DNA from: a virus
Strand: one strand, 5' to 3'
DNA length: 64,000 nt
Virus record (IMG/VR): IMGVR_UViG_3300037190_000626
Span: 1-64,000 of that record
Part shown: positions 4,366-46,727 of the stretch, piece after piece
Layout: each line of letters opens with the position of its first letter
Position numbering within the stretch: position 1 is the stretch's first letter
The notes under the pieces: model-generated
What the model saw: only the letters and a program-made list of their open reading frames with translations
Told to the model about the DNA's origin: nothing
Databases searched by the model: none
Made by a program: the position numbers and the translations under genes

Positions 4366-6232
4366 CGTTTTTCATAAGATCCACGAGAACATCCGGATGG
4401 GTGAAGGTTGCGTGGTTGTTGAGACTGAAGAGTCACAAGACGTGATTGAAGAAATTCGTGGTGGCGTGTATGCCACCAACAAGGCCGCACAAGAACCTAA
4501 GGAACAAGTCTTTGTGGCTTTCCATGATGCGGTCCGTGGTCTTCAGGATATCGACGGAGATATTTTGAGTGCTGTGGCAGCTAACGAATCTAATGCTGAT
4601 GAACTTGCTGCTTTAGGGATGACGGCAGATGAGCCAGAAGCATGCAGTGCGTTTGACGCTATCAAGATGTTTTTGGACATTGCTGATGAACGTAAACGTG
4701 CCGCAGAAAATGGAGACGATAGCGCGAGTCATGATATCAAACAGGTTCTCGTGTTGAGAAACTTTGATCGGGAGTTGATGCCGCAGGGAAACCAGAACAT
4801 CAATGCTCGGCTTCTCATGGCAGTGCAACATCTCATCACCGTGGGTCGTATGACTGACGTGATGTTGGTTCTCTTGGTGAGCACAGGTGCAGAGTTGCCT
4901 GCTGAAATACGCGAGCACGTTGCTGGTGTCTTCCATGACCTTCCCGATAACGACGAGCGTCATGCTATCATCGAAGATCTGGCTGATGCTTGCGGTCTTG
5001 AGAAGGACGAAGACGCGGCTGTAAGGACCGTTGCGGCTACTAGTGGGCTGAGCCGGGCTTGGACCGAAAGAAGCGTTAGCGAGGCTCTGAGTCGCTACAA
5101 GGGTCTGGATACAGGCGCTATCTGGCGTATGAAAGCAGAGTATCTAGGAAAACAGGGGCTTTTGCAGCTCTGGACCCCGGAGTTCCAAAAAGAGGTAAAA
5201 CTCTGGCCAACACCCGATAGCGGGTTTGAAGGCTTCTCAGATGTGACGATGTTGCGTGAAGAAACGCATCAGCAGAACCGGGAAGTTCCCGCTGATAACA
5301 TCCGTGCCCGTCTTCGCTATTCAGATAGTGAAGTGATCAAGGAGCACTGGCTTGACCCGATGCCTACGGAAGAGTTTGAAGCGAAGTTTCGTCCTGAGCG
5401 TGACTTCTTCAGCTTCAAGTCTGTAATCGGGCTGAACGGTCTGAAGGGTTTCCTCCAGCGTGGTAATCGTGCTGGTATCCCTGACCGTGCCAAGATGAAG
5501 GGCGTTTTACTCGTTGGTGTTCCGGGTACCGGGAAGAGCTTCATCATGAAGTGTGCTGCCGGTGAACTTGGGATGCCGCTATCTGAGATGTCTGCTGCCA
5601 ACTTGTATTCCAAGTGGCTCGGGGAGACTGACAAGAATCTCCGCAAGATGCTCAGTACAGTTGAATCGATTGGCGGCATTCTCGGTATTGATGAATACCA
5701 GAGGTTCATGCCTACGGGCGGTGACGAGTCCGAAGGACGGACTAGTCAGAGTGTCGCAGGTGGAATGCTGACGTGGCAGAACGATCAGAACAGTGTGCTA
5801 GTGTTAGCCGCTGCTAATGACGTGAGTGCTATTCCGCCGGAATTCACTCGATCTGGTCGATTCGATACCACGTACTTCGTGGGCTTTCCTTCACGTGAGT
5901 CGAAAGACGCGGCGTGGGAGATGTATATCTCTCGCCACGAGCTGGATGAGCAGAAGCTTCCCGAAGATGACTATTGGGTACCGGCGGACATCGAAGTGTG
6001 CTGCAAAATGAGTGAGCAGCAGGGAATCTCCCTGCGTGAAGCAGCGAAATATATCAAGATCTCCTACTCAGGTACCGGGAAGGCTGTCTTGGATAAGTTA
6101 ATGGATTGGGCCGAAGATGCGGGCTGTATTGATGCTGAGACGAATGAACTCTTTGTTCATCCGAGGAAGCAGAAAAGCTCTGCCTCTGGTAGCCAAGCAC
6201 CGAAACGTACAGTTAGGAGTGTGAACAAATGA
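4358..6232 (+). CDS. AAA+ ATPase (Ycf46-like)
   Basis: Walker A GVPGTGKS, SKWLGETDKN, Walker B LGIDE, SRH PPEFTRSGRFD; start moved to ATG 4358 behind an AAGGAG SD. Confidence 0.85.
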   Translation: MSSVFHKIHENIRMGEGCVVVETEESQDVIEEIRGGVYATNKAAQEPKEQVFVAFHDAVRGLQDIDGDILSAVAANESNADELAALGMTADEPEACSAFDAIKMFLDIADERKRAAENGDDSASHDIKQVLVLRNFDRELMPQGNQNINARLLMAVQHLITVGRMTDVMLVLLVSTGAELPAEIREHVAGVFHDLPDNDERHAIIEDLADACGLEKDEDAAVRTVAATSGLSRAWTERSVSEALSRYKGLDTGAIWRMKAEYLGKQGLLQLWTPEFQKEVKLWPTPDSGFEGFSDVTMLREETHQQNREVPADNIRARLRYSDSEVIKEHWLDPMPTEEFEAKFRPERDFFSFKSVIGLNGLKGFLQRGNRAGIPDRAKMKGVLLVGVPGTGKSFIMKCAAGELGMPLSEMSAANLYSKWLGETDKNLRKMLSTVESIGGILGIDEYQRFMPTGGDESEGRTSQSVAGGMLTWQNDQNSVLVLAAANDVSAIPPEFTRSGRFDTTYFVGFPSRESKDAAWEMYISRHELDEQKLPEDDYWVPADIEVCCKMSEQQGISLREAAKYIKISYSGTGKAVLDKLMDWAEDAGCIDAETNELFVHPRKQKSSASGSQAPKRTVRSVNK

Positions 6233-6464
6233 GGTTAGCAGAAAAAACTACGGCTGTTTGTGAGGACGAAGCTAAGGAAGAAAGTTCAGTTTCGGAAGTT
6301 TCGACAACTGAAACGAAGACTTTCGAGGTTCCGGGCTGGGTGCAGGTGGTTCAAAGCTTTACCCAAGGCCTTGGTCTCTGTATCGGAGTTATTTTGGCAC
6401 TTCCGTTTATTGCCGTCAGCCGAGGCATTGAGTGGTATCAGAACAATAAAAATAAGGTGGAAAA

Positions 6465-7838
6465 ATGAGTATGACTTTTAACCAACAAGAATTGTTTGGA
6501 CAACCGGAGGACGATGGACTCCTCCAACAGGTTACGCAGGAGGAGCAGGACTACCTCGGGGGCGATACGATTGATACCCCGGGAGACTTGGGACCGAGCG
6601 AGGATTTTGATACCCTCGTGCAGAACTCCGGTTCGGAGTCTGTCGGAGATTTCCTTCAGGAAGAGTGCATGACTGTGGAGATGGAGCTTGGATCTCTCCC
6701 CACATCGTTTGCCATTCCCAAGGAAGTCAAGAAGAAATGGGCTGAGACTACGGACACGAATCAACGTCGTGTTCGGGGCCGATTGGCTATCCTCAGCTCG
6801 GATTCGCACCCTTACCTGAAGGAAGGGAATGCAATCAAGCGGCAGATCACAGCCATCTTGGACCAGTATACTCTACCTAAACAGCAGGTAGCTATATCTT
6901 CGGCAGGTATTACCGACGATGGTGCTAAGCTGATTTCCAAGAAGGAATCAGGTAAGCGGATCATTCTCAAGAGCTTGGTTGATGAGTTTACCGAGAAGAT
7001 TACCCCGGCTATTGACGCGTATATCATGTGGGGAGCCGGTCTTGATCAGCGACTTGACATGTTTCGCACGGAAGACCGAATAGCCCTTGGAGACGCGTGG
7101 GATCTAATGGAACCCAAGTATCCTAAGAGCCTTGCACCGCATGTGACGGTTGTTGAACCTACGTTCAGCCCGATCAACATCACTATAGATTTTGAGAAGG
7201 TTGCGCCGCGTAGTGCGGAACAGCTTCGCAAGACGAATGCTGCGTGGTTGGATGCCACTGTTGGTGCAGCAGTCGGTGAAGTCGTTGAGACTTTGCTTGA
7301 CAACGTACGAGACGTTGTGAGGCAGCTTGGTACTAGACAGCGGCTGCTTCCCGCTATTGGAAGTGAGTACGGGCATCTTCGTGAGCACGAAGTAAAGAAA
7401 ATCCTCAAGCACGAGGATGATCCTCAGAATATTCCTGCCGACTCGTGGTTGGTTTTCACTCAGGTTAAGGGGAGTGGAGTTAAGGAGCACCTTATTCCGG
7501 TTGCGGATTTCAAAGCCCAGCTGAATATGTATGCAACAGACGAGCACTGCAAGCTGTATTCCAGCGGCATTGATAAGCTCATGACGTTGGCTGAGAAGAT
7601 TGGAAATATCCAAACTATGCTGGGTGAGGATGGTCCCGCCATCAGTTCCTTTGCTTCCCAACTTCAGGATCTTTTGGTGAACTTTGGGCACACGCCCGGG
7701 GCAATTGCCAAGGAACTGAAGGGCGGCTTTGCCCGTAATACTGCGCGATCGCAGCTTGCCGGGTTAGCGGATTCTATTGAGGGGCAACTTGTCCAACGTG
7801 AGAAGAAGCAGAAAGTTCACCGAAGGAGAATTGGATGA
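6465..7838 (+). CDS. hypothetical helical protein, possibly DUF3150-like
   Basis: 457 aa ORF within the DUF1257/DUF2997/AAA cluster. Confidence 0.45.
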   Translation: MSMTFNQQELFGQPEDDGLLQQVTQEEQDYLGGDTIDTPGDLGPSEDFDTLVQNSGSESVGDFLQEECMTVEMELGSLPTSFAIPKEVKKKWAETTDTNQRRVRGRLAILSSDSHPYLKEGNAIKRQITAILDQYTLPKQQVAISSAGITDDGAKLISKKESGKRIILKSLVDEFTEKITPAIDAYIMWGAGLDQRLDMFRTEDRIALGDAWDLMEPKYPKSLAPHVTVVEPTFSPINITIDFEKVAPRSAEQLRKTNAAWLDATVGAAVGEVVETLLDNVRDVVRQLGTRQRLLPAIGSEYGHLREHEVKKILKHEDDPQNIPADSWLVFTQVKGSGVKEHLIPVADFKAQLNMYATDEHCKLYSSGIDKLMTLAEKIGNIQTMLGEDGPAISSFASQLQDLLVNFGHTPGAIAKELKGGFARNTARSQLAGLADSIEGQLVQREKKQKVHRRRIG

Positions 7839-24388: not shown

Positions 24389-24679
24389 GTGAATAAAAAT
24401 CTATTAAAAATCGATCAGGTCGCGGAAATGCTCGCAACTCAACCTAAGACCGTCAAGAGCTGGACCAGCAAAGGATTACTGGGTGCCGTCAAATTTGGTC
24501 GGACCATTCGTTATCGACCTGAGGATGTGCAACATTTCATCGACAAGAAACTAGCGCGACATATTGCAGCTTACATGAATCAAGCGTGGGAGCATCGTAA
24601 ATATTATACTGGTCAGCATTCAATGGCAGACATAATACTAGAGGCTCTCGGAGCCTACGAAAGAGAGGAGAATAAGTAA
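24389..24679 (+). CDS. excisionase-type HTH DNA-binding protein
   Basis: LLKIDQVAEML...TVKSW...GLLGAVKFGRTIRYRPEDV. Confidence 0.75.
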   Translation: MNKNLLKIDQVAEMLATQPKTVKSWTSKGLLGAVKFGRTIRYRPEDVQHFIDKKLARHIAAYMNQAWEHRKYYTGQHSMADIILEALGAYEREENK

Positions 24680-25242
24680 TGGGTAACAGTCAGATATACG
24701 AGATCCCCGGGTTTGTCAGCAGTTCCACTTGTGGCGAGATCGTGGCGTGGCTCAAAAATAGGAAAGAGTACGAACCAGAAAACGAAGGTAACGCCCACTT
24801 CGACGGGAGAACTGTACCTTTCAACAGAATACCTGATTTGCACATAAAGCAAATGGTGGGTGCTTTTCGTTTTGACATAACATCTAAGGTCCGGGGGTTA
24901 TTTGAGGGAACGTTATATCCTGACTACACCGATCTGGTTTATTGGCCAGACGGTATGGACATGGATGTACACGCAGATGCTGCTTGGCTGGACGGGACAC
25001 CTAACTATTGTGCTTACCGAAACGTATCAGGAGTCACTTATCTAAACGATGACTACGAGGGCGGGGAAACTTATTTCCCGGCCCTTGAGTACGAGGTTAA
25101 GCCGGAGAAAGGCAAAGTAGTTTTATTCCCGTCCGATCTGCAACATAGACATGGTGTCAGGGAGGTAAAGGGAGAGAGGTATACTATGCCGATATGGTTT
25201 ACTAAAGATATATCGCATCTAGAAGTGGAGGTAGGACCGTGA
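24679..25242 (+). CDS. 2OG-Fe(II) oxygenase (prolyl-4-hydroxylase-like)
   Basis: VHAD, YLNDDYEGGETYF, HRHGVREV...RYTMPIWF. Confidence 0.88.
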   Translation: MGNSQIYEIPGFVSSSTCGEIVAWLKNRKEYEPENEGNAHFDGRTVPFNRIPDLHIKQMVGAFRFDITSKVRGLFEGTLYPDYTDLVYWPDGMDMDVHADAAWLDGTPNYCAYRNVSGVTYLNDDYEGGETYFPALEYEVKPEKGKVVLFPSDLQHRHGVREVKGERYTMPIWFTKDISHLEVEVGP

Positions 25243-27532: not shown

Positions 27533-27841
27533 ATGGTAGAACGATTTGGGCCTAGCGTTAGGAGAACACGACGGCCCCCTGACCCTGAGTGGTTAAAGTT
27601 TATGTCCACAGACGAGAAAGAGGCTATGCGGTTAGAGGAGTGGATGCTGACTAGTTTAGCAGACACCGGCCTATCCGTACGTGCTGTCAATTGTCTGGAA
27701 GGAAAAGGTATTTTAACCGTGAGTCAGTTATCTCAGCAAACCAATGACGATTTGTTGGGTATCGTAAACTTTGGGGTACAAACATTGGAACAATGTAAAA
27801 GACTTCTGATGAACATAGGAGTTCCCCACAGTCTAAAGTAA
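27533..27841 (+). CDS. stand-alone RNA polymerase alpha C-terminal-domain-like protein
   Basis: LSVRAVNCLEGKGILTVSQL...DDLLGIVNFGVQTL matches alphaCTD (L.VR..NCL...I..+..L...LL...N.G..SL). Confidence 0.8.
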   Translation: MVERFGPSVRRTRRPPDPEWLKFMSTDEKEAMRLEEWMLTSLADTGLSVRAVNCLEGKGILTVSQLSQQTNDDLLGIVNFGVQTLEQCKRLLMNIGVPHSLK

Positions 27842-27863
27842 GAGAAAATTTGTTTAGCAGATT

Positions 27864-27895
27864 AAGCCTAGGGTGTGTTGCCCTAGGCTTTTTTT
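27864..27895 (+). terminator. intrinsic terminator
   Basis: AAGCCTAGGG-tgtgttg-CCCTAGGCTT perfect 10-bp stem plus T-run. Confidence 0.8.
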
Positions 27896-27924: not shown

Positions 27925-28689
27925 ATGGCTACAGTTACGAAGACTAGCGCAAAGAAGCCTGCGGCTAACGACCCTTTCGCTAAGACGCGAATTGAGATTC
28001 CCGAAGTGAACATGGATATCTTCAAGTGTCGCCTTATTGGCGAGACCCCGTTGGTTATTCATGCGATGGGTGAAAAGAAGCGTAAGGAAATGCGCGATTT
28101 GATGGGCCCCAAGACGGCGGCCTCTAAGGTGCGACCCCCAAAGGATCAGGCGGGTGAGTACTTTGACGCAATGTATATTTTGAACAATCAGATGGACAAG
28201 GACGGTAAACGCCCTAACCCACATCACAACGATCAGGAATACAGCTACGAAGGTATCTTCGTTCCGCTGGCCTTTGAAGACGCTACTGCGGTTCATGGTG
28301 TGCGTGCTTCCGGGTTCCGGCTCGGTATGGTTCGTGCCGCTAAGAGCTGCGGTGCTGTGATGACGGACACTCGCTGTAACATGCGAGTTAGAAGTCCGTT
28401 TGGCTCGTTCGTCCCGTTGAGCTTTGAGACGGTTGTCTCCCGGGAAGACCCCGTGAAGTTGCAGGGCAACAAGACTGACCTGCGTTACCGCCCTGAGTAC
28501 ACGGGCTGGTCAGTTGACATCGAGATTGAGCACATGTCGGACATCATCGGACCAGAGCAGCTGATTCAGTTGCTGCGTATTTCTGGTCGTACGGTTGGTG
28601 TCGGCGAATGGCGTAATGAACGTGGCGGCGAGTTCGGCGCGTTCGATGTGGATCTGGACAGCGTCGAGCTGGAAAAGAAAACTCTGTAA
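27925..28689 (+). CDS. stand-alone Cas7/RAMP-fold RNA-binding protein, putative effector of the adjacent pentamer-repeat arrays (Vipr-like)
   Basis: N-terminal strand CRLIGETPLVIH, central RYRPEY.GWSVDIEIE, C-terminal Gly-rich loop SGRTVGVGEWRNERGGEFGAFDV typical of RAMPs; start at MATVTK behind AAGGA. Confidence 0.75.
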   Translation: MATVTKTSAKKPAANDPFAKTRIEIPEVNMDIFKCRLIGETPLVIHAMGEKKRKEMRDLMGPKTAASKVRPPKDQAGEYFDAMYILNNQMDKDGKRPNPHHNDQEYSYEGIFVPLAFEDATAVHGVRASGFRLGMVRAAKSCGAVMTDTRCNMRVRSPFGSFVPLSFETVVSREDPVKLQGNKTDLRYRPEYTGWSVDIEIEHMSDIIGPEQLIQLLRISGRTVGVGEWRNERGGEFGAFDVDLDSVELEKKTL

Positions 28690-28947: not shown

Positions 28948-29490
28948 ATGAGTAGTGGTTACGATGTAACTGTTGAATTTAGTGCCAAGCCGACTCGTCC
29001 TCTTAGCAATAAGGTGGCTGAAGAGGTTGGTCCTGAGATTCACGCATTGATGCAGAAGAACGAGGGGGACGAGCTTACCCCGCATGAGTACTTGGATTGG
29101 GTTAAGGCAAACCCAAACAGTAAGAGTTACAGTCAGTTTGAGTGGGAAGATACAATTGCTGCGAGAAAGTGGCGAGTTCATCAAGCTCGAAATATCATCA
29201 ATTCGATTGATATTAAGGTGATTGACGAACGCGGCGACGCGGTGAGCGTTCCTGCGTTCATTCATATTACGAGGGCAGACTCGGGTGAGGATGCTCGTCA
29301 GTTGTATACTTCTTACGAAAACGTTCTGAACGACGAGGAAAGCTCTTCACAGGTGGTAGCGAGAGCTTGCCGTGATTTCCTGTCGTGGCGTCGTCGTTAC
29401 CTGCTGCTCCGGGGTAAGCTGCCACTGGCAGACATTTACGATGCGACGGACGTTCTGGCTCAAGAGCTGGAAGCACCGGAAGAAGATTAA
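28948..29490 (+). CDS. conserved partner protein between the RAMP gene and the array
   Basis: LTP..Y...K.NP.S..Y..FEW.D..AA..WR..QAR..I.SI motif of a widespread phage hypothetical family; directly upstream of array 1. Confidence 0.7.
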   Translation: MSSGYDVTVEFSAKPTRPLSNKVAEEVGPEIHALMQKNEGDELTPHEYLDWVKANPNSKSYSQFEWEDTIAARKWRVHQARNIINSIDIKVIDERGDAVSVPAFIHITRADSGEDARQLYTSYENVLNDEESSSQVVARACRDFLSWRRRYLLLRGKLPLADIYDATDVLAQELEAPEED

Positions 29491-29568
29491 TTTGGGAGCG
29501 AATAGTTAGTTTGGAAATCTCGTCAAACAGCGTCGTGGGGACGTAACGCTATTCGTGTGACATGGCAT

Positions 29569-30312
29569 GGCAGTCATGGCGAGGTGTGACATGGTGAGCT
29601 GGGGCTTGTTAAGGTCTGGCGGGGTTAGGTCAGGTAAGGCAGTCTTGGCAGGGTAAGGTGTGTTAAGGCACTGCGAGGTGGGCCACGGTTAGGCGAGGAA
29701 TGGCAGTCATGGTTAGGTTTAGCGAGGCGGGGAGAGGTGCGGCAGGGTGCGGCTGGGCAGTCATGGCATGGTGCGGTCGGTACCGGCGGGGTCAGGAGGG
29801 GTAAGGCTCGGAATGGCAGTCAAGGTGAGGTTAGGCATGGTCTGGAACGTTATGCGCTGGTTTGGAGTGGTAAGGCAGTCGTGGCGGGGTGGGGCCGGTC
29901 TGGGATAGGTCCGGTTGGGTGAGGCAGTCGAGGCGGGGTCTGGTAAGTTGCGTTAAGGCGGGGAAAGGTGGGGTGGGTTACGGCAGTCAAGGCTAGGTGT
30001 GGTGTAGTGTGTCGAGGCGGCGAAAGGTCGGGCAGGGCAGTCATGGTGAGGCGGGGTGTTGCTGGGTGTGTCTGGTTCGGGGCTGGCGAGGCAGTCATGG
30101 CAGGGGGTGGTGGGTAGCGGCGGGGTCAGGAGGGGCAAGGCAGTCATGGTGAGGTGTGACACGATGAGGTGTGACATGGTTCGGCAGTCGAGGTCGGGTC
30201 TGGTTCGATCTGGCAAGCCGAGGCGTGGTGCGTTGAGGCAGGCATGGAATGGGTGGCACGGCGCGGTCAGACCACGGTGAGTAATGGCAAGGCTAGGCAG
30301 CCATGGCGCGGA
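29569..30312 (+). repeat. array 1: 13 units of GGCAGTC-NN-(GGY-NN)7-12, putative guide-RNA array
   Basis: Heads at 29569, 29638, 29702, 29756, 29815, 29874, 29923, 29982, 30036, 30090, 30139, 30183, 30237 (GGCAGGC), 30296 (GGCAGCC); unit lengths 69, 64, 54, 59, 59, 49, 59, 54, 54, 49, 44, 54, 59, all 9+5n. Confidence 0.92.
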
Positions 30313-30326
30313 TATTAACTTTACCC

Positions 30327-30698
30327 CTACTTTTCGCAGCTGCTGCAACGAGCACTCCATCTTGATCTCATCTGAGAGCGAACCGGACGTTCTTGTGCCA
30401 TAACACGTAGGGCCCGAAACGGCATAGTTGTAACTCTTACTGTGGTTCTCACAGTGGCTCTAACAAGCGTTCGAACTGGTTGTGCGTCACGGAGCCTCTT
30501 TGCGGCATTACGTAAGGGAGATCGGCAACTGCGGCCCTCTGCTGCGACGACAGGTTGCTTATCGGCTTCTTGCATACTGACAGCACTAACGTATGACACA
30601 GTTGACGCTTTGGATGCGTGATCACAATCTTGTGCGTTAACAGAGCTGAAAGAGAGAACACTTACGACAACGGCTGAAGCTAAACACTTTTTAAACAT
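30327..30698 (-). CDS. small secreted, Arg-rich protein lying between the two arrays
   Basis: Signal-peptide-like MFKKCLASAVVVSVLSFSSVNA; AGGA SD on the minus strand; PVRTLVRATVRTTVR low-complexity tail. Confidence 0.6.
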   Translation of the reverse strand: MFKKCLASAVVVSVLSFSSVNAQDCDHASKASTVSYVSAVSMQEADKQPVVAAEGRSCRSPLRNAAKRLRDAQPVRTLVRATVRTTVRVTTMPFRALRVMAQERPVRSQMRSRWSARCSSCEK

Positions 30699-30831
30699 GT
30701 CTTTTCCTGTTATTTAAGTGGTAATACGTAATGCTCCTACAAGGGAGCGACAAAATTGTAAATCTTTAATTGCGACACGGCATCCCCAAACCAGAGGTAT
30801 TTTTAAAAATACTCCAAAAAAGAAGTGACGA

Positions 30832-31017
30832 GGCAGTCATGGTTAGGTGCGTACTGGTGAGGTGGGTTCAGGTCAGGCAGGGTGTGGTATGGCAGTCAAG
30901 GCGAGGTATGGTCGGGTGAGACATGGTCGGGCTGGGCGAGGCGAGGAATGGCAGTCAGGGCAAGGTCTGGTTGGGTTTGATTCGGAGGGGCGAGGAGTGG
31001 CAGTCGTGGTGCGGTTG
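30832..31017 (+). repeat. array 2: 3 full units plus a partial unit of GGCAGTC-NN-(GGY-NN)n
   Basis: Heads at 30832, 30891, 30950, 30999; lengths 59, 59, 49; same 5-nt phase as array 1. Confidence 0.9.
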
Positions 31018-31021
31018 CTAG

Positions 31022-31387
31022 ACTTAAGCTTTTGACTTAAGCTTGTGAGTCCTTACGTTAAGTAATATATAAAACAAGGAGGAGTGATGAGACCTGAGTC
31101 ATTTAGGTCAAAACCATTTATTGATTGTTCTAAGTGGGAATGTTGGAATTGCGGTGCAATTCACCATTACATACCTGCTGATTGTCAAAAATGTCGGGTG
31201 AAATTTGTCTCCCGACCTCACTGGGGTGTTCCCGAGAAAAATTCGGAGATCTCTGAAGAGAAGAAAACATCAATATCTTTTGATGAGTTAATATCTGATT
31301 TACTGAAAGGACCAGAAGAAGAGTAACTGCTTGATGCCCTGTATATATTATCTATAGGACTCACAAGCTTAAGTTAAAAGCTTAAGT
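31022..31387. repeat. 32-bp inverted repeat pair flanking a small ORF
   Basis: ACTTAAGCTTTTGACTTAAGCTTGTGAGTCCT (31022-31053) vs AGGACTCACAAGCTTAAGTTAAAAGCTTAAGT (31356-31387), 31/32 complementary. Confidence 0.85.
31084..31326 (+). CDS. small zinc-ribbon protein
   Basis: WECWNCG...DCQKC; AAGGAGG SD. Confidence 0.55.
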   Translation: MMRPESFRSKPFIDCSKWECWNCGAIHHYIPADCQKCRVKFVSRPHWGVPEKNSEISEEKKTSISFDELISDLLKGPEEE

Positions 31388-44240: not shown

Positions 44241-45073
44241 TCAATGCTCGTACACACCGAAAGCAGCCAATGCCGGGGACGGAGTCCAAGTCAGTTCGAT
44301 TGTCTAATCAACTGGCGCCAGCCGAGGAGCGGCTAAGCGACGACTTAAAGAAAACGTACACGCTGGAACGTCGTCTTTTGGACGAGCGGTGTGGTCGTAG
44401 TCGTGGTCGTCCTTACAGTCCGTCCCCACGATACGATGGGGAGGATACAAGGGCAACGATTGAGGATATTCAACGAAAGCCGGAGAACACGTGGGTGAAA
44501 GTGGTGCGGGAACTTTGGCCCGCGAATGTTCACCCGTGTATTTATGTCCGGACTATTTTTCGCGGTATAGGCGGGACTGCTATGGCACCGCCGTATCCTC
44601 ATCAACTTTTGAGTAAGAAGTGGAAAGAATTTTTCCACGCGGAGAGCGCCAGATTAATTGATGAAATTCCTGCGGGGTTTTCCCGGCAATCAGAATTTTC
44701 TGCCTCCTCCATCTTGCGAAGTCAGCGTATATTGGGGTATGACTTACAACAGTCTGTGTACTATTTGTTGACGGACCGGCTGGCTCCTTTGACTTCGCTT
44801 TACCGCCATAGTTTAGCGAAGTCAATGTTACGGGAGCCAAACTTGTCGAAGATTGATCGTCCTGCATTGTTCGAGGGTGTGGCAGCCAGAACAGAGCGGC
44901 AGGCAGTCATTCAGTACACGCAATTCAGTGCTCAATACGCAGAGCACTGGAGGTTGATTCTTCCGGATGGCTTCCGGGAGACGGCGGAAAGGATTTACGG
45001 CGGATTATTGACGGTGTGTTTAAATGAGGGAGAGTTCGATGTCAAAACAGCGGTCACGGTTGACCGCTCGTGA
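44237..45073 (+). CDS. hypothetical replication-module protein
   Basis: 278 aa ORF overlapping both helicase genes. Confidence 0.55.
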   Translation: MINARTHRKQPMPGTESKSVRLSNQLAPAEERLSDDLKKTYTLERRLLDERCGRSRGRPYSPSPRYDGEDTRATIEDIQRKPENTWVKVVRELWPANVHPCIYVRTIFRGIGGTAMAPPYPHQLLSKKWKEFFHAESARLIDEIPAGFSRQSEFSASSILRSQRILGYDLQQSVYYLLTDRLAPLTSLYRHSLAKSMLREPNLSKIDRPALFEGVAARTERQAVIQYTQFSAQYAEHWRLILPDGFRETAERIYGGLLTVCLNEGEFDVKTAVTVDRS

Positions 45074-46727
45074 AATCAGACAATGCTTAAAGGTATTGTG
45101 TAGAAGTACGGAGCTATTTTCGTTATTTCACGAGCAACTTGAAGTTAACCACTTCAAAGGTTTTGAGATCTATCAGCTCGTATACCGTGTGCTAACTAAT
45201 TTTTATGGGGAGCATACTGAGCTACCCGGTCCCGGTGTCGTGTGGACCGAGTGTGACTCTATCCTTGAACAAATGCCAGAGCATTTTACAGGGGGAGAGC
45301 TTGAGGATCTTGAAGAATTTTTAAATGACACATACGAATCTGAAGAGTGGACTGGCGTTGTTGAGGATAAACAGCAAGTCCGCTGGGCGCTTAATAAGGT
45401 TCGTGATTTTATTGAAGAGCGCGTAATTACGGACTGTGTGGCTCCCTTATTGGGTGGCCCTACGGTTCCGATAGACTTACCTGACTTTTTGGTTCAGATG
45501 GGTGACCGTGTCACACAGATACAATCCATCGAGGAGCAGGAAGAAGGTAATTTAACATTCGGCAGTGACTGGGATAAGCGGGCTGGACTTCCTATACGTT
45601 CTACAGGCTTGTCGTATCTCGATGAGTTCATGTCTGGCGGTCACTGTGTTGGGGAAGTGTATGGCATTTTAGCGCCATACGGTACTTGTAAGACCACGTT
45701 GGCTACTATGCTGGCGTGTAATGAAGCGAGACATGCGCAGCAGGAGTATGACCCAACACGTCCAGATCGGTGCGGTATTTCGGTGATTGTTTCTTATGAG
45801 GCTCCTAAGCAGCCTGAGTTACATCACCGTTTTTTAATGTACCTTGCACAGATACGCCGAGATTCTTTGGAGGCTATGGGTGCTGATGGACTTAGCAGCC
45901 TAGGCGGTGACGTGGATAACCCGTTACCTTACGAGAAAGAATTATTTTATCAGCATATTCAAGATCAGATGTTTATACCGGAAGCCACACGAGCACTTCA
46001 GTGTGTGGACTTACTAAATAAACATTGTCTTGTGTTGGATATGACTGGTAATGATCCCACTTACCCCGGTGCGGGCGGTGGGGGGCTTAAGGAAATAAGT
46101 CGACGGATTCGACTTGAGCTTGCAAGGCGAGGCCCTGAGTACTATCTCACTTCAGTGGTGATTGACTACGTAGGAGCTTTGGTTAAGCGAGCGATGGCTG
46201 TATCTAATGAGGATAGCAACGAGCTTCGCCATCACATTACTAAAGTTCCGTTACTCGCGAGGAACGAGATTGCGACGGAATTTAAATGTCCGGTGTGGTT
46301 AGTACACCAGCTTTCTGGTCAAGCAAATTCAGTGCTTAAACCGGGGGCTTCGTTGCACCATACCGATTCTGCGGAGTCTAAGAGCTTCGCGGAAAACTTA
46401 GATTTTGCCTTCGTGATAGGTAATCTTAACGCGGATAATATGGGACAGATAGCTTGCACTAAGCACCGACGCGCAGCGAACGCACCACCTAAAGTGATTC
46501 AGGTGGATGGTATGTTCAATACTGTGTTGGCGCGAGATGACATGTTTGTCGATTCTCATACACGTGCCATTTTGGATAAAGATACTGCTAGCACTGCGGG
46601 TGTCGTTTCGTCACCCAGCTCAGTAGATTATTCCGCAAATGACTTAATGATGGATGACAATGAAATGACATGGGAACAAGAAAATGAGTCAAATGACCCC
46701 GGAGGCGACGAATTCAGTTTTGAATAG
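45039..46727 (+). CDS. DnaB-like replicative helicase
   Basis: STGLSYLDEFMSGG, LAPYGTCKTT (variant Walker A), SYE, VIDY, PVWLVHQL, acidic tail. Confidence 0.8.
   Translation: MSKQRSRLTAREIRQCLKVLCRSTELFSLFHEQLEVNHFKGFEIYQLVYRVLTNFYGEHTELPGPGVVWTECDSILEQMPEHFTGGELEDLEEFLNDTYESEEWTGVVEDKQQVRWALNKVRDFIEERVITDCVAPLLGGPTVPIDLPDFLVQMGDRVTQIQSIEEQEEGNLTFGSDWDKRAGLPIRSTGLSYLDEFMSGGHCVGEVYGILAPYGTCKTTLATMLACNEARHAQQEYDPTRPDRCGISVIVSYEAPKQPELHHRFLMYLAQIRRDSLEAMGADGLSSLGGDVDNPLPYEKELFYQHIQDQMFIPEATRALQCVDLLNKHCLVLDMTGNDPTYPGAGGGGLKEISRRIRLELARRGPEYYLTSVVIDYVGALVKRAMAVSNEDSNELRHHITKVPLLARNEIATEFKCPVWLVHQLSGQANSVLKPGASLHHTDSAESKSFAENLDFAFVIGNLNADNMGQIACTKHRRAANAPPKVIQVDGMFNTVLARDDMFVDSHTRAILDKDTASTAGVVSSPSSVDYSANDLMMDDNEMTWEQENESNDPGGDEFSFE

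What the first reader, a model, noticed from the sequence alone, without database searches (positions are those of the whole stretch)
29982..30035. Guide unit decoding to the ParB-like motif KYVVVEGNRR
Seen: AAnTAnGTnGTnGTnGAnGGnAAnCGnAG. Established: Y.VhEGNRR is the arginine-patch motif of ParB/Srx-like domains found in defence islands and mobile elements. Inference: targets a ParB-like nuclease/NTPase gene of the host or of a competitor.
Basis: partly seen in the sequence, partly recalled or inferred. Interest (0 to 1): 0.78.

Follow-up and report, generated by a model that had tools for sequence, protein, structure and literature searches.

The report
VIPR guide aimed at ParB-like defence gene
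This stretch is one guide RNA unit of a phage VIPR system, a CRISPR-like RNA-guided DNA silencer described in 2026, and its code exactly spells the conserved ParB-type motif of an anti-phage defence protein family, so the phage may use it to switch such genes off.

Summary
Positions 29989-30038 hold ten pentamers whose first two bases read AA TA GT GT GT GA GG AA CG AG, after a GGCAGTC head at 29982-29988.

This is a published system, not a new one. It is a VIPR system (bioRxiv 10.64898/2026.04.26.720920): a RAMP-fold Vipr gene (27925-28689), an accessory gene, and two GGY/NN guide arrays read with a one-base skip.

The exact gapped pattern gave these results:
- 8 hits in 185,579 species genomes, against about 1.1 expected. 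Seven are in frame.
- 26 hits in metagenomes, 23 in frame.
- 0 hits in viral contigs.

I scanned 24 of the 30 in-frame ORFs:
- All 24 match PADLOC PD-Lambda-5_A.
- 12 match Pfam ParB_N weakly.
- A model of one has KorB, ParB, Noc and sulfiredoxin as its best fold matches.

Limits:
- The host is unknown.
- There are no RNA data.
- Only 1 of 14 unselected family genes matches exactly.
- Other guides were not tied to the same genomes.

A defence gene as a VIPR target is not in the text I read of the three VIPR preprints. This scan has noted VIPR before on other DNA (496 notes in at least 371 genomes), including anti-defence readings.

The parts
27925..28689 (+). vipr gene: 254-aa stand-alone RAMP (Cas7/Csm3-like) protein. 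The likely start is the ATG at 27925, not the TTG at 27850.
   Evidence: AF2 model has mean pLDDT 79.5. Foldseek PDB top hits are Csm3/Cas7 chains of type III and VII complexes, E 2e-6 to 2e-4. It matches phrog_4652. 61 homologues align from MATVTK. 303 viral contigs encode relatives. A terminator-like hairpin at 27864-27890 lies inside the TTG extension.
28948..29490 (+). Candidate vap (vipr accessory) gene, 180 aa.
   Evidence: It lies between vipr and array 1 on the same strand. It matches phrog_15946, E 5.6e-14. It has no Pfam or PADLOC family. By eye, a gene with a similar FEW.D motif sits beside arrays in L010 and L078. Homology to the published vap1-6 was not tested.
29569..30300 (+). 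vrRNA array 1: 12 GGCAGTC heads, with units of 8-13 NNGGY pentamers separated by the 4-base AGTC. The last unit is degenerate.
   Evidence: All spacings are 5k+4. The closest relative, L009, has the same punctuation, with 10 of 13 spacings at 5k+4.
29982..29988 (+). Head or punctuation GGCAGTC before the unit in question. It is the end of the previous unit plus AGTC.
29989..30038 (+). Guide unit 8: ten pentamers, NN string AA TA GT GT GT GA GG AA CG AG. The inferred 1-nt-skip target codes (K/N)YVVV(D/E)G(K/N)R(R/S).
   Evidence: The target family is shown. There is no self-match above shuffled guides. The piece 29981-30048 is kept in rearranged array contigs of two marine runs.
30832..31015 (+). 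vrRNA array 2: 4 heads, 3 full units and a short end.

Best explanation
The unit at 29989-30038 is one guide of a VIPR system carried by an uncultured marine phage.

Shown here:
- A RAMP-fold Vipr gene and an accessory gene sit directly upstream of two arrays of GGY/NN pentamers on the same strand.
- The same gene-array pairing recurs in many viral contigs.
- The ten NN dinucleotides of this unit, read with one skipped base between them, exactly match the sense strand of genes for ParB-like proteins of the PD-Lambda-5_A / PDC-M38A defence-associated family.
- The match is at the stretch coding (K/N)YVVVEGNRR, with the skipped base on the codon wobble position.

Taken from the VIPR preprints (shown for phage SUSP1 and a Pseudomonas prophage, not for this locus):
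- Vipr protomers polymerise on the vrRNA, bury each GGY and expose each NN.
- The NN pairs bind one DNA strand with every third base flipped out.
- The bound complex blocks transcription on either strand.

Inferred:
- During infection this guide binds about 200-330 bp into the ORF of a PD-Lambda-5-like gene in the host chromosome, or on an island in it.
- Binding silences that gene, and by polarity the methyltransferase-like B gene downstream.
- This lowers a defence.
- Because the footprint lies on the invariant arginine-patch motif and ignores wobble bases, escape would need changes that damage the protein.
For: Locus:
- The Vipr fold is supported.
- The array grammar holds.
- 303 viral contigs encode relatives. 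In 33 of the 80 loci kept, a crude lag-5 test finds a period-5 array, mostly just downstream of the gene.
- The closest relative shares the GGCAGTC punctuation.

Code and mechanism:
- Preprints 10.64898/2026.04.26.720920 (Results, Discussion and three Methods sections read) and 10.64898/2026.04.26.720927 (abstract and one Results section).

Target:
- 8 exact hits in genome contigs, against 1.08 expected at random and 0.24 expected in frame. Seven are in frame.
- 26 exact hits in metagenome contigs, 23 in frame.
- 24 of 24 scanned ORFs match PD-Lambda-5_A, although they are only 14-25% identical to the first one overall.

Context:
- PD-Lambda-5_B lies directly downstream in L004, L005 and L095, 3 of the 7 downstream neighbours tested.
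- Other neighbours include DndB-like, PbeC/DndD-like, type IV restriction-like, SIR2_2 and an integrase.
- There are 0 exact hits in 2.9 million viral contigs. This fits a cellular or island gene better than a phage gene.

Other support:
- No self-target.
- A wobble-aligned guide on an active-site stretch is in print for SUSP1 vrRNA4.
- The unit is retained in rearranged array variants in runs X2 and X4.
Against: - The host is unknown, and no exact target was shown in a genome known to be infected by this phage.
- No RNA evidence exists for this locus.
- Three of the ten triplets in the unit are not GGY. The preprint reports that perturbing GGY motifs abolished silencing in SUSP1.
- Breadth is narrow. 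Among 14 motif sites in family genes drawn without the pattern from 400 gammaproteobacterial genomes, the guide's best match falls on the motif in 14 of 14. But only 6 reach 16/20, which shuffled guides also reach somewhere in a locus, and only 1 is exact.
- No second guide was tied to the same genomes. Units 4, 5 and 13 have 0 exact hits in viral contigs. In the five genomes with exact unit-8 targets, units 13 and 4 have no match within 3 mismatches, and unit 5 has one that contains a stop codon. None of the 14 other units reaches 80% in the 34 target loci above shuffled controls.
- PD-Lambda-5 can ride on satellites (PMC13612085, passages), so 'defence gene' and 'rival element' are not separable here.
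- The ParB assignment rests on weak scores: Pfam E<=1 in 12 of 24, PDB profile E about 1e-3, and no Foldseek match at E<=0.001.
Confidence: 0.6

Rival explanations
1. The guide is a working VIPR guide, but its purpose is competition between mobile elements, as in the published cases. The ParB-like gene would be targeted because it belongs to a rival satellite, integrative island, prophage or plasmid, whose maintenance or spread the phage blocks. Lowering a host defence would not be the point.
For: - Published natural targets are satellites, prophage regulators, vipr genes and vrRNAs.
- The exact-match gene in L004 lies directly after a tyrosine integrase with an Arm DNA-binding domain.
- PD-Lambda-5 A and B are reported on a P4-like satellite (PMC13612085, passages).
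- ParB-fold proteins are common on mobile elements (my own knowledge).
Against: - There are 0 exact hits in viral contigs.
- In L006 the gene lies near Mrp antiporter genes.
- In L005, L008 and L097 the neighbours are other defence-type genes, not element core genes.
- No other guide converges on the same loci.
- The two readings are not exclusive.
Confidence: 0.25
2. The match to the ParB-like motif is a coincidence, and the natural target is something else. One candidate is the unrelated gene hit on its antisense strand in three metagenome contigs.
For: - Three of the 26 metagenome hits (L089, L093, L112) lie antisense in one Thr/Pro-rich gene from a single sample series.
- VIPR can bind either strand.
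- About one random hit is expected in genome contigs.
- One of the 8 genome hits (L001) is in no ORF.
Against: - 30 of 34 hits fall in one frame of one family at the same motif. The chance of 7 or more of 8 hits in the sense frame is 2.4e-5, and the Poisson chance of 7 or more in-frame hits is 7e-9.
- In the three antisense hits the skipped base falls on codon position 1, not wobble. The three are close variants of one gene, so they count as one event.
Confidence: 0.07
3. The unit is a decaying or inactive array member. It was once a guide, but its three non-GGY triplets (AGT, GTC, CGA) now prevent Vipr from loading properly.
For: - 3 of 10 triplets deviate.
- Perturbing GGY motifs abolished silencing in SUSP1.
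Against: - All 20 NN bases still match real genes exactly and in register across the deviant pentamers.
- The preprint notes frequent internal degeneracy of natural vrRNAs.
- The piece is kept unchanged in three runs, including rearranged variants.
Confidence: 0.06

Closest known systems
VIPR type II system of Escherichia phage SUSP1 (Vipr + vap1 + vrRNAs; bioRxiv 10.64898/2026.04.26.720920 and 10.64898/2026.04.26.720927)
   Same: - A single small RAMP protein and an accessory gene next to GGY/NN pentamer RNAs.
- Specificity carried by the NN dinucleotides.
- A target read with one skipped base that falls on the wobble position.
- Coding-sequence targets.
- No self-targeting.
   Different: - Units here are 8-13 repeats, against 9-16 reported.
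- They follow each other with only a 4-base AGTC between them. There is no roughly 100-nt transcript with an invariant 3' tail or pseudoknot.
- tblastn of this Vipr against 50,697 phage records finds only 5 Gordonia and 1 Pseudomonas phage records at 24-26% identity, and no Escherichia phage.
- The source is marine and uncultured.
- Nothing here has been tested at the bench.
'Staggered' vrRNA arrays with 1-nt overlapping vrRNAs (legend of fig. S18 of 10.64898/2026.04.26.720920)
   Same: - Units are contiguous, so the end of one marks the start of the next.
- Read in the YNNGG frame, CAGTC and the next CATGG share one C. This gives the 5k+4 spacing seen in all units.
   Different: - Only the legend could be read.
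- The equivalence is my inference.
SUSP1 vrRNA4 on the satellite excision recombinase (bioRxiv 10.64898/2026.10.15.759431)
   Same: A wobble-aligned guide whose footprint covers codons of an active-site stretch, so that escape would damage the enzyme.
   Different: - The target here is the ParB-type arginine-patch stretch of a defence-associated protein family, found in cellular contigs of several phyla.
- It is not one satellite family of the phage's known host.
- There is no experiment and no known host.
Cas7/Csm3 backbone subunits of class 1 CRISPR effectors
   Same: Same fold (Foldseek E 2e-6, TM about 0.4-0.5 on the target). The published mechanism uses a thumb that flips bases periodically.
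   Different: - No CRISPR array or other cas genes in the window.
- The period is 5 nt, with 3 buried and 2 pairing bases, rather than 6 nt with 5 pairing bases.

Membership tests
VIPR system | Stand-alone RAMP-fold Vipr protein | tested here: met
   AF2 pLDDT 79.5, pTM 0.74. 73 PDB chains match at E<=0.001, and the top ones are all Csm3/Cas7 of type III/VII.
VIPR system | Adjacent tandem YNNGG (GGY/NN) repeats, at least four per candidate vrRNA | tested here: met
   There are 15 full units of 8-13 pentamers. 112 of 158 triplets are GGY and 126 of 158 are GGN. The criterion is quoted from the Methods.
VIPR system | Targets obey the 1-nt skip rule, with the skip on the wobble position | tested here: met
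   This was tested for unit 8 only. 30 of 34 exact NNx hits are in the sense frame of ORFs. Other skip lengths were not tested here.
VIPR system | No self-targeting at 80% or more NN match | tested here: met
   The best self-matches of 14 of the 15 units are 65-78% of NN bases. The 16-base unit 11 reaches 13/16 (81%), and shuffled orders reach 15/16. None exceeds shuffled orders.
VIPR system | vap accessory gene | tested here: inconclusive
   A 180-aa gene (phrog_15946) lies between vipr and array 1. It was not compared with the published vap1-6, whose sequences I could not see.
VIPR system | Invariant 3' tail or pseudoknot after the repeat tract (type II feature) | tested here: not met
   Only AGTC separates the units. 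This fits the 'staggered array' variant named in the preprint, so it argues against type II, not against VIPR.
VIPR system | vrRNA expressed and bound by Vipr; DNA binding and silencing | not testable with these tools
   No RNA run holds the stretch. This needs bench work.
ParB/Srx-like N-terminal domain (target protein) | Sequence and fold similarity to the ParB N-terminal domain, with the G-x-R-R arginine patch in it | tested here: met
   - Pfam ParB_N matches 12 of 24 at E<=1 (best 4.4e-6), and GmrSD_N matches 4 of 24.
- The profile finds Noc at E 0.0011-0.0017 and ParB at E 0.0029, over profile positions 43-118, which hold the motif.
- In the model, residues 1-120 have pLDDT above 86. The best Foldseek rows are KorB, ParB, Noc, PadC and sulfiredoxin at E 1.7e-3 to 0.1, none at E<=0.001.
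- The scores are weak but point one way.
- A single-sequence search found nothing.
PD-Lambda-5 defence system (target locus) | A protein matching PD-Lambda-5_A models | tested here: met
   24 of 24 scanned ORFs match at E<=1e-5. The best is 6.5e-164 over the full length for L004. 22 of 24 also match PDC-M38A.
PD-Lambda-5 defence system (target locus) | Adjacent PD-Lambda-5_B (methyltransferase-like) gene | tested here: inconclusive
   It is present directly downstream in L004, L005 and L095. It is absent in L008, L092, L103 and L113, where the neighbours differ. Only some exact targets are therefore full PD-Lambda-5 systems.
PD-Lambda-5 defence system (target locus) | Protects against phage | not testable with these tools
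   The family name comes from PADLOC. No member found here has been assayed.

The most novel reading that the evidence does not exclude
VIPR is used here as a programmable counter-defence. A phage guide silences PD-Lambda-5-type (and related ParB-like) defence operons by binding the DNA that codes their invariant arginine-patch motif. The neighbouring units may form a panel of guides against other conserved defence-gene motifs (DGQHR/DndB-like, HsdM-like). That target class is not mentioned in the parts of the three VIPR preprints that I read.
Probability: 0.35. Interest if true: 0.7.

Novelty: new member of a known kind. Interest (0 to 1): 0.45.

Why it matters
The system itself was described in 2026, so the locus only adds a new, divergent marine member with a compact 'staggered' array.

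The added value is the target. In the text I read, published natural VIPR targets are satellites, prophage regulators, vipr genes, vrRNAs and host decoy repeats. Here a guide exactly spells the most conserved stretch of an anti-phage defence protein family, and exact matches occur in cellular contigs of several phyla.

If the guide does silence such genes, VIPR would also be an RNA-guided anti-defence tool. The wobble-skipping code would then have a second use, hitting invariant motifs of defence genes in hosts the phage has not met.

This can be tested with standard E. coli reporter and plaque assays.

Tried and rejected
- **Tandem Repeats Finder** did not report the arrays, only short period-10 rows.
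- **Rfam** at E<=1 gave one irrelevant weak match.
- **blastn** of the arrays against phage records gave no match. tblastn with a 567-aa ORF (45024-46727) also gave none, so no cultured relative or host could be named.
- **Promoter and terminator scans** gave nothing usable inside the arrays.
- **Early ideas dropped.** Before finding the papers I considered several readings:
  - a TRAP-like ring-protein binding RNA;
  - a CsrA sponge;
  - G-quadruplex or R-loop DNA;
  - a packaging or partition site;
  - a coding region.
  I dropped them once the RAMP fold, the conserved gene-array synteny and the in-frame gapped hits were in hand.
- **Target proteins in Pfam and NCBIfam.** Pfam at E<=0.01 and NCBIfam gave no ParB call for the two proteins first tested. 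L005 matched only collagen-like models through its Gly-rich insert. phmmer of one N-terminal domain against PDB sequences gave nothing significant.
- **Viral contigs.** Units 8, 4, 13 and 5 each had 0 exact hits. I do not count this as evidence on those units, because 20-22 exact bases is a strict test.
- **The 34 target loci.** No other unit reached 80% above shuffled controls.
- **The five genomes with exact unit-8 targets**, searched within 3 mismatches:
  - Unit 13: no match.
  - Unit 5: one match, containing a stop codon.
  - Unit 4: no match.
  - The built-in backwards controls gave 0.
- **Unit 13 and the DGQHR gene.** It matches 17 of 22 bases on the DGQHR gene next to the unit-8 target in L097 and L002. 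But 0 of 120 close homologues of that gene fit its code at more than 8 of 11 residues, so I do not claim it as a target.
- **Similar guides elsewhere.** No guide like unit 8 was found in the 80 related viral loci above shuffled controls.
- **RNA and depth.** No RNA holder was listed for the stretch. Parts of the arrays have no cover in some runs. Neither point is used as evidence.
- **No empirical control for the two large scans.** A shuffled or backwards control could not be run on genome contigs or metagenome contigs, because each allows one scan. I give an analytic expectation instead. Its coding-density figure (0.87) is my own assumption.
- **What I could not read.** Supplementary files were not opened. 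Data S3 of the first preprint (lists of natural targets) and the figures, including S18, could bear on the novelty claim and on the array type. The claim that defence genes are not named as VIPR targets rests on three things:
  - searches;
  - the sections and passages read;
  - term searches for 'defense system', 'anti-defense', 'ParB', 'PD-lambda', 'methyltransferase' and 'methylase'.
I found neither 'methyltransferase' nor 'methylase' in its main text.

Full report
**What is in the sequence.**
- The window is the first 64 kb of a single 77,959-base virus record. Nearly all its genes are on the + strand.
- Two G-rich non-coding blocks lie at 29569-30300 and 30832-31015.
- They consist of pentamers NNGGY, in runs of 8-13, each run closed by the four bases AGTC.
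- The head GGCAGTC occurs 20 times in the window, against 6.5 expected. Sixteen of these lie in the two blocks.
- All spacings in the blocks are 5k+4.
- Of 158 pentamers, 112 carry GGY.
- No other part of the genome has this signal.
- The unit in question runs from 29989 to 30038, after the head at 29982-29988.
- Three of its ten triplets are not GGY.

**What the locus is.**
- The 254-aa protein at 27925-28689 has no Pfam or PADLOC family.
- It folds with pLDDT 79.5. Its best structural matches are Csm3/Cas7 subunits of type III and VII CRISPR complexes, E 2e-6.
- It has 61 relatives in the large protein set, and 303 viral contigs encode one.
- In 33 of the 80 loci kept, a simple lag-5 identity test finds a pentamer array, mostly just downstream of the gene.
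- The closest relative (55% identity, L009) has the same GGCAGTC punctuation.
- A literature search then showed that this is the VIPR system, described in 2026:
  - The Vipr protein is an early-branching RAMP.
  - vrRNAs are built of 9-16 YNNGG repeats.
  - Recognition of double-stranded DNA is through the NN dinucleotides, with one skipped base that mostly falls on codon wobble positions.
  - The result is transcriptional silencing (10.64898/2026.04.26.720920).
- The cryo-EM preprint shows that the thumb displaces G, G and Y on the guide and one base on the target (10.64898/2026.04.26.720927).

**How this locus differs from the studied type II systems.**
- The units have no long invariant 3' tail. 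Only AGTC separates them.
- In the YNNGG frame, CAGTC and the following CATGG share one C.
- This matches the legend of fig. S18 ('staggered' arrays whose vrRNAs overlap by 1 nt). I could not see the figure.
- tblastn of this Vipr against 50,697 phage records finds only five Gordonia and one Pseudomonas phage records at 24-26% identity.
- The phage is known only from marine and seawater metagenome runs.

**The target of this unit.** The exact pattern AANTANGTNGTNGTNGANGGNAANCGNAG was scanned in three collections.
- *Species genomes:* 8 hits across 185,579 species.
  - About 1.08 hits are expected for random sequence.
  - About 0.24 in-frame hits are expected from codon-start frequencies.
  - Seven of the 8 lie in frame in ORFs reading (K/N)YVVV(E/D)GNRR.
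  - They come from Erwinia, Vibrio, Brevibacillus, Hellea, a Desulfobacterales MAG, Flagellimonas and a Chitinophagaceae MAG.
- *Metagenome contigs:* 26 hits, 23 in frame in the same kind of ORF.
  - The other three are close variants of one unrelated gene, hit on its antisense strand with the skipped base on codon position 1.
- *Viral contigs:* none.
- I aligned 24 of the 30 in-frame ORFs, leaving out three short fragments and three near-duplicates.
  - They are only 14-25% identical to the first one overall.
  - They share Y-V-V-V-x-G-N-R-R as invariant columns (by selection) and an upstream LLLDP.NPR block.
  - All 24 match PADLOC PD-Lambda-5_A models, and 22 also match PDC-M38A.

**Is the target ParB-like?**
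- Pfam ParB_N matches 12 of the 24 at E<=1 (best 4.4e-6). GmrSD_N matches 4.
- A profile of the 24 finds Noc and ParB chains at E about 1e-3, over the region that holds the motif.
- A model of the Vibrio protein has a confident N-terminal domain.
- Its best matches are KorB, ParB, Noc, PadC and sulfiredoxin, at E 1.7e-3 and weaker.
- Each score is weak, but they all agree. I accept the ParB/Srx assignment.

**Context of the targets.**
- A PD-Lambda-5_B (methyltransferase-like) gene follows directly in L004, L005 and L095.
- Elsewhere the neighbours are a DndB-like DGQHR gene (L097), a PbeC/DndD-like and a PAPS-reductase-like gene (L008), and a type IV restriction-like gene (L113).
- Four of the ten neighbour proteins scanned matched nothing in PADLOC.
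- In L004 a tyrosine integrase lies just upstream. In L005, SIR2_2 and ParA-like ATPase genes lie nearby. In L006 the neighbours are housekeeping genes.
- PD-Lambda-5 has been reported on a P4-like satellite (PMC13612085, passages).
- The targets are therefore defence-associated genes, some of them on integrative islands.

**Limits and results against the reading.**
- *Breadth is narrow.* In 400 gammaproteobacterial genomes, 14 hold a family member.
  - The guide's best match in each locus falls on the motif at all 14 distinct motif sites.
  - Only 6 reach 16 of 20 bases, a score that shuffled guides also reach somewhere in such a locus.
  - Only 1 is exact, and it is the Vibrio gene already found by the pattern.
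  - The guide fits the family's most common motif version, not the whole family.
- *The host is unknown.*
- *No second guide was tied to the same genomes*.
The larger collections were no longer available to test them.
- *Unit 13* (the DGQHR reading):
  - It matches 17 of 22 bases on the DGQHR gene directly upstream of the unit-8 target in L097 and in the Erwinia locus.
  - None of 120 close homologues of that gene fits its code fully.
- *No RNA data exist*.

**Population data.** Contigs of four marine runs show the arrays rearranged: units are skipped, reordered, or replaced by other pentamer stretches. The piece 29981-30048, which holds this unit, is present without listed differences in three runs. 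In two of them (from two studies) it is joined to different neighbours. Assembly of repeats can create false joins, so I treat this as a hint that the unit is kept while the array turns over.

**Verdict.**
- The unit is a VIPR guide whose inferred target is the arginine-patch-coding stretch of ParB-like PD-Lambda-5_A / PDC-M38A genes.
- The mechanism (a Vipr filament on the vrRNA, gapped pairing, transcriptional block) is taken from the preprints and was not shown for this locus.
- A guide sitting on an active-site stretch, so that escape is costly, is also in print for a satellite recombinase (10.64898/2026.10.15.759431).
- A defence gene as the target is not in the text I read.
- This scan has met VIPR many times on other DNA (496 notes in at least 371 genomes). 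Other follow-ups have proposed anti-defence targets, and one such bold reading was later priced at 30 in 100.
- I rate the finding a new member of a known kind, of moderate interest.

Noticed in passing
window 27533-27841 (+): A 102-aa protein with an RNA polymerase alpha C-terminal domain (Pfam RNA_pol_A_CTD, E 2.7e-13) lies directly upstream of vipr. A strong terminator-like hairpin at 27864-27890 separates them. A phage-encoded alpha-CTD mimic next to a transcriptional silencer may be worth a look.
   Followed up: no
window 30327-30698 (-): This is the only sizeable minus-strand ORF near the locus (123 aa). It has a signal-peptide-like start and an Arg-rich rest, and it lies between the two arrays. 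It has no Pfam or PHROG family. It may not be a gene.
   Followed up: partly
window 29400-31150, runs X1-X4: Marine metagenome contigs show array variants. There are joints that skip 69, 144, 192, 889 and 912 bases, a join back from array 2 into array 1, and inserted stretches that are themselves pentamer-like. This suggests unit-wise turnover of guides in the population. Assembly artefacts are not excluded.
   Followed up: partly
window 30839-30893 (+); L097 about 5884-7131 (-); L002: Unit 13 decodes to (I/M)YAL(D/E)G(H/Q)(H/Q)(S/R)V(I/M). Its best matches among all held target loci (17 of 22) fall on the IFAVDGQHRLA stretch of the DGQHR/DndB-like gene directly upstream of the exact unit-8 target in two related loci. 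None of 120 close homologues fits the code fully.
   Followed up: partly
window 31021-31048 (+): A 13-base tandem repeat (2.2 copies, consensus GACTTAAGCTTGT) lies directly after array 2, before the next gene. Its role is unknown.
   Followed up: no
L005 3670-5412 (-): The Brevibacillus PD-Lambda-5_A homologue carries a long internal Gly-Ala-Gly-Thr-Gln repeat that matches collagen-like adhesin models.
   Followed up: no
L089 5053-5081, L093 1453-1481, L112 1480-1508: Three metagenome contigs of one sample series match the unit-8 pattern exactly, on the antisense strand of a Thr/Pro-rich gene, out of wobble register. This is probably one chance event. A true second target is not excluded.
   Followed up: partly
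L010 6656-6953; L078 2157-2661 and 3094-3627; L080 7023-7304: More distant Vipr relatives (about 30-39% identity) have NNGGC arrays with other punctuation (AGGC as well as AGTC). In L078, arrays lie on both sides of a gene with a FEW.D-type motif like the window's 180-aa gene.
   Followed up: partly
window 24679-25242 (+): A 187-aa protein matches PHROGs annotated as 2OG-Fe(II) oxygenase and DNA endonuclease (phrog_61, E 1.5e-23; phrog_2297, E 6.5e-21).
   Followed up: no
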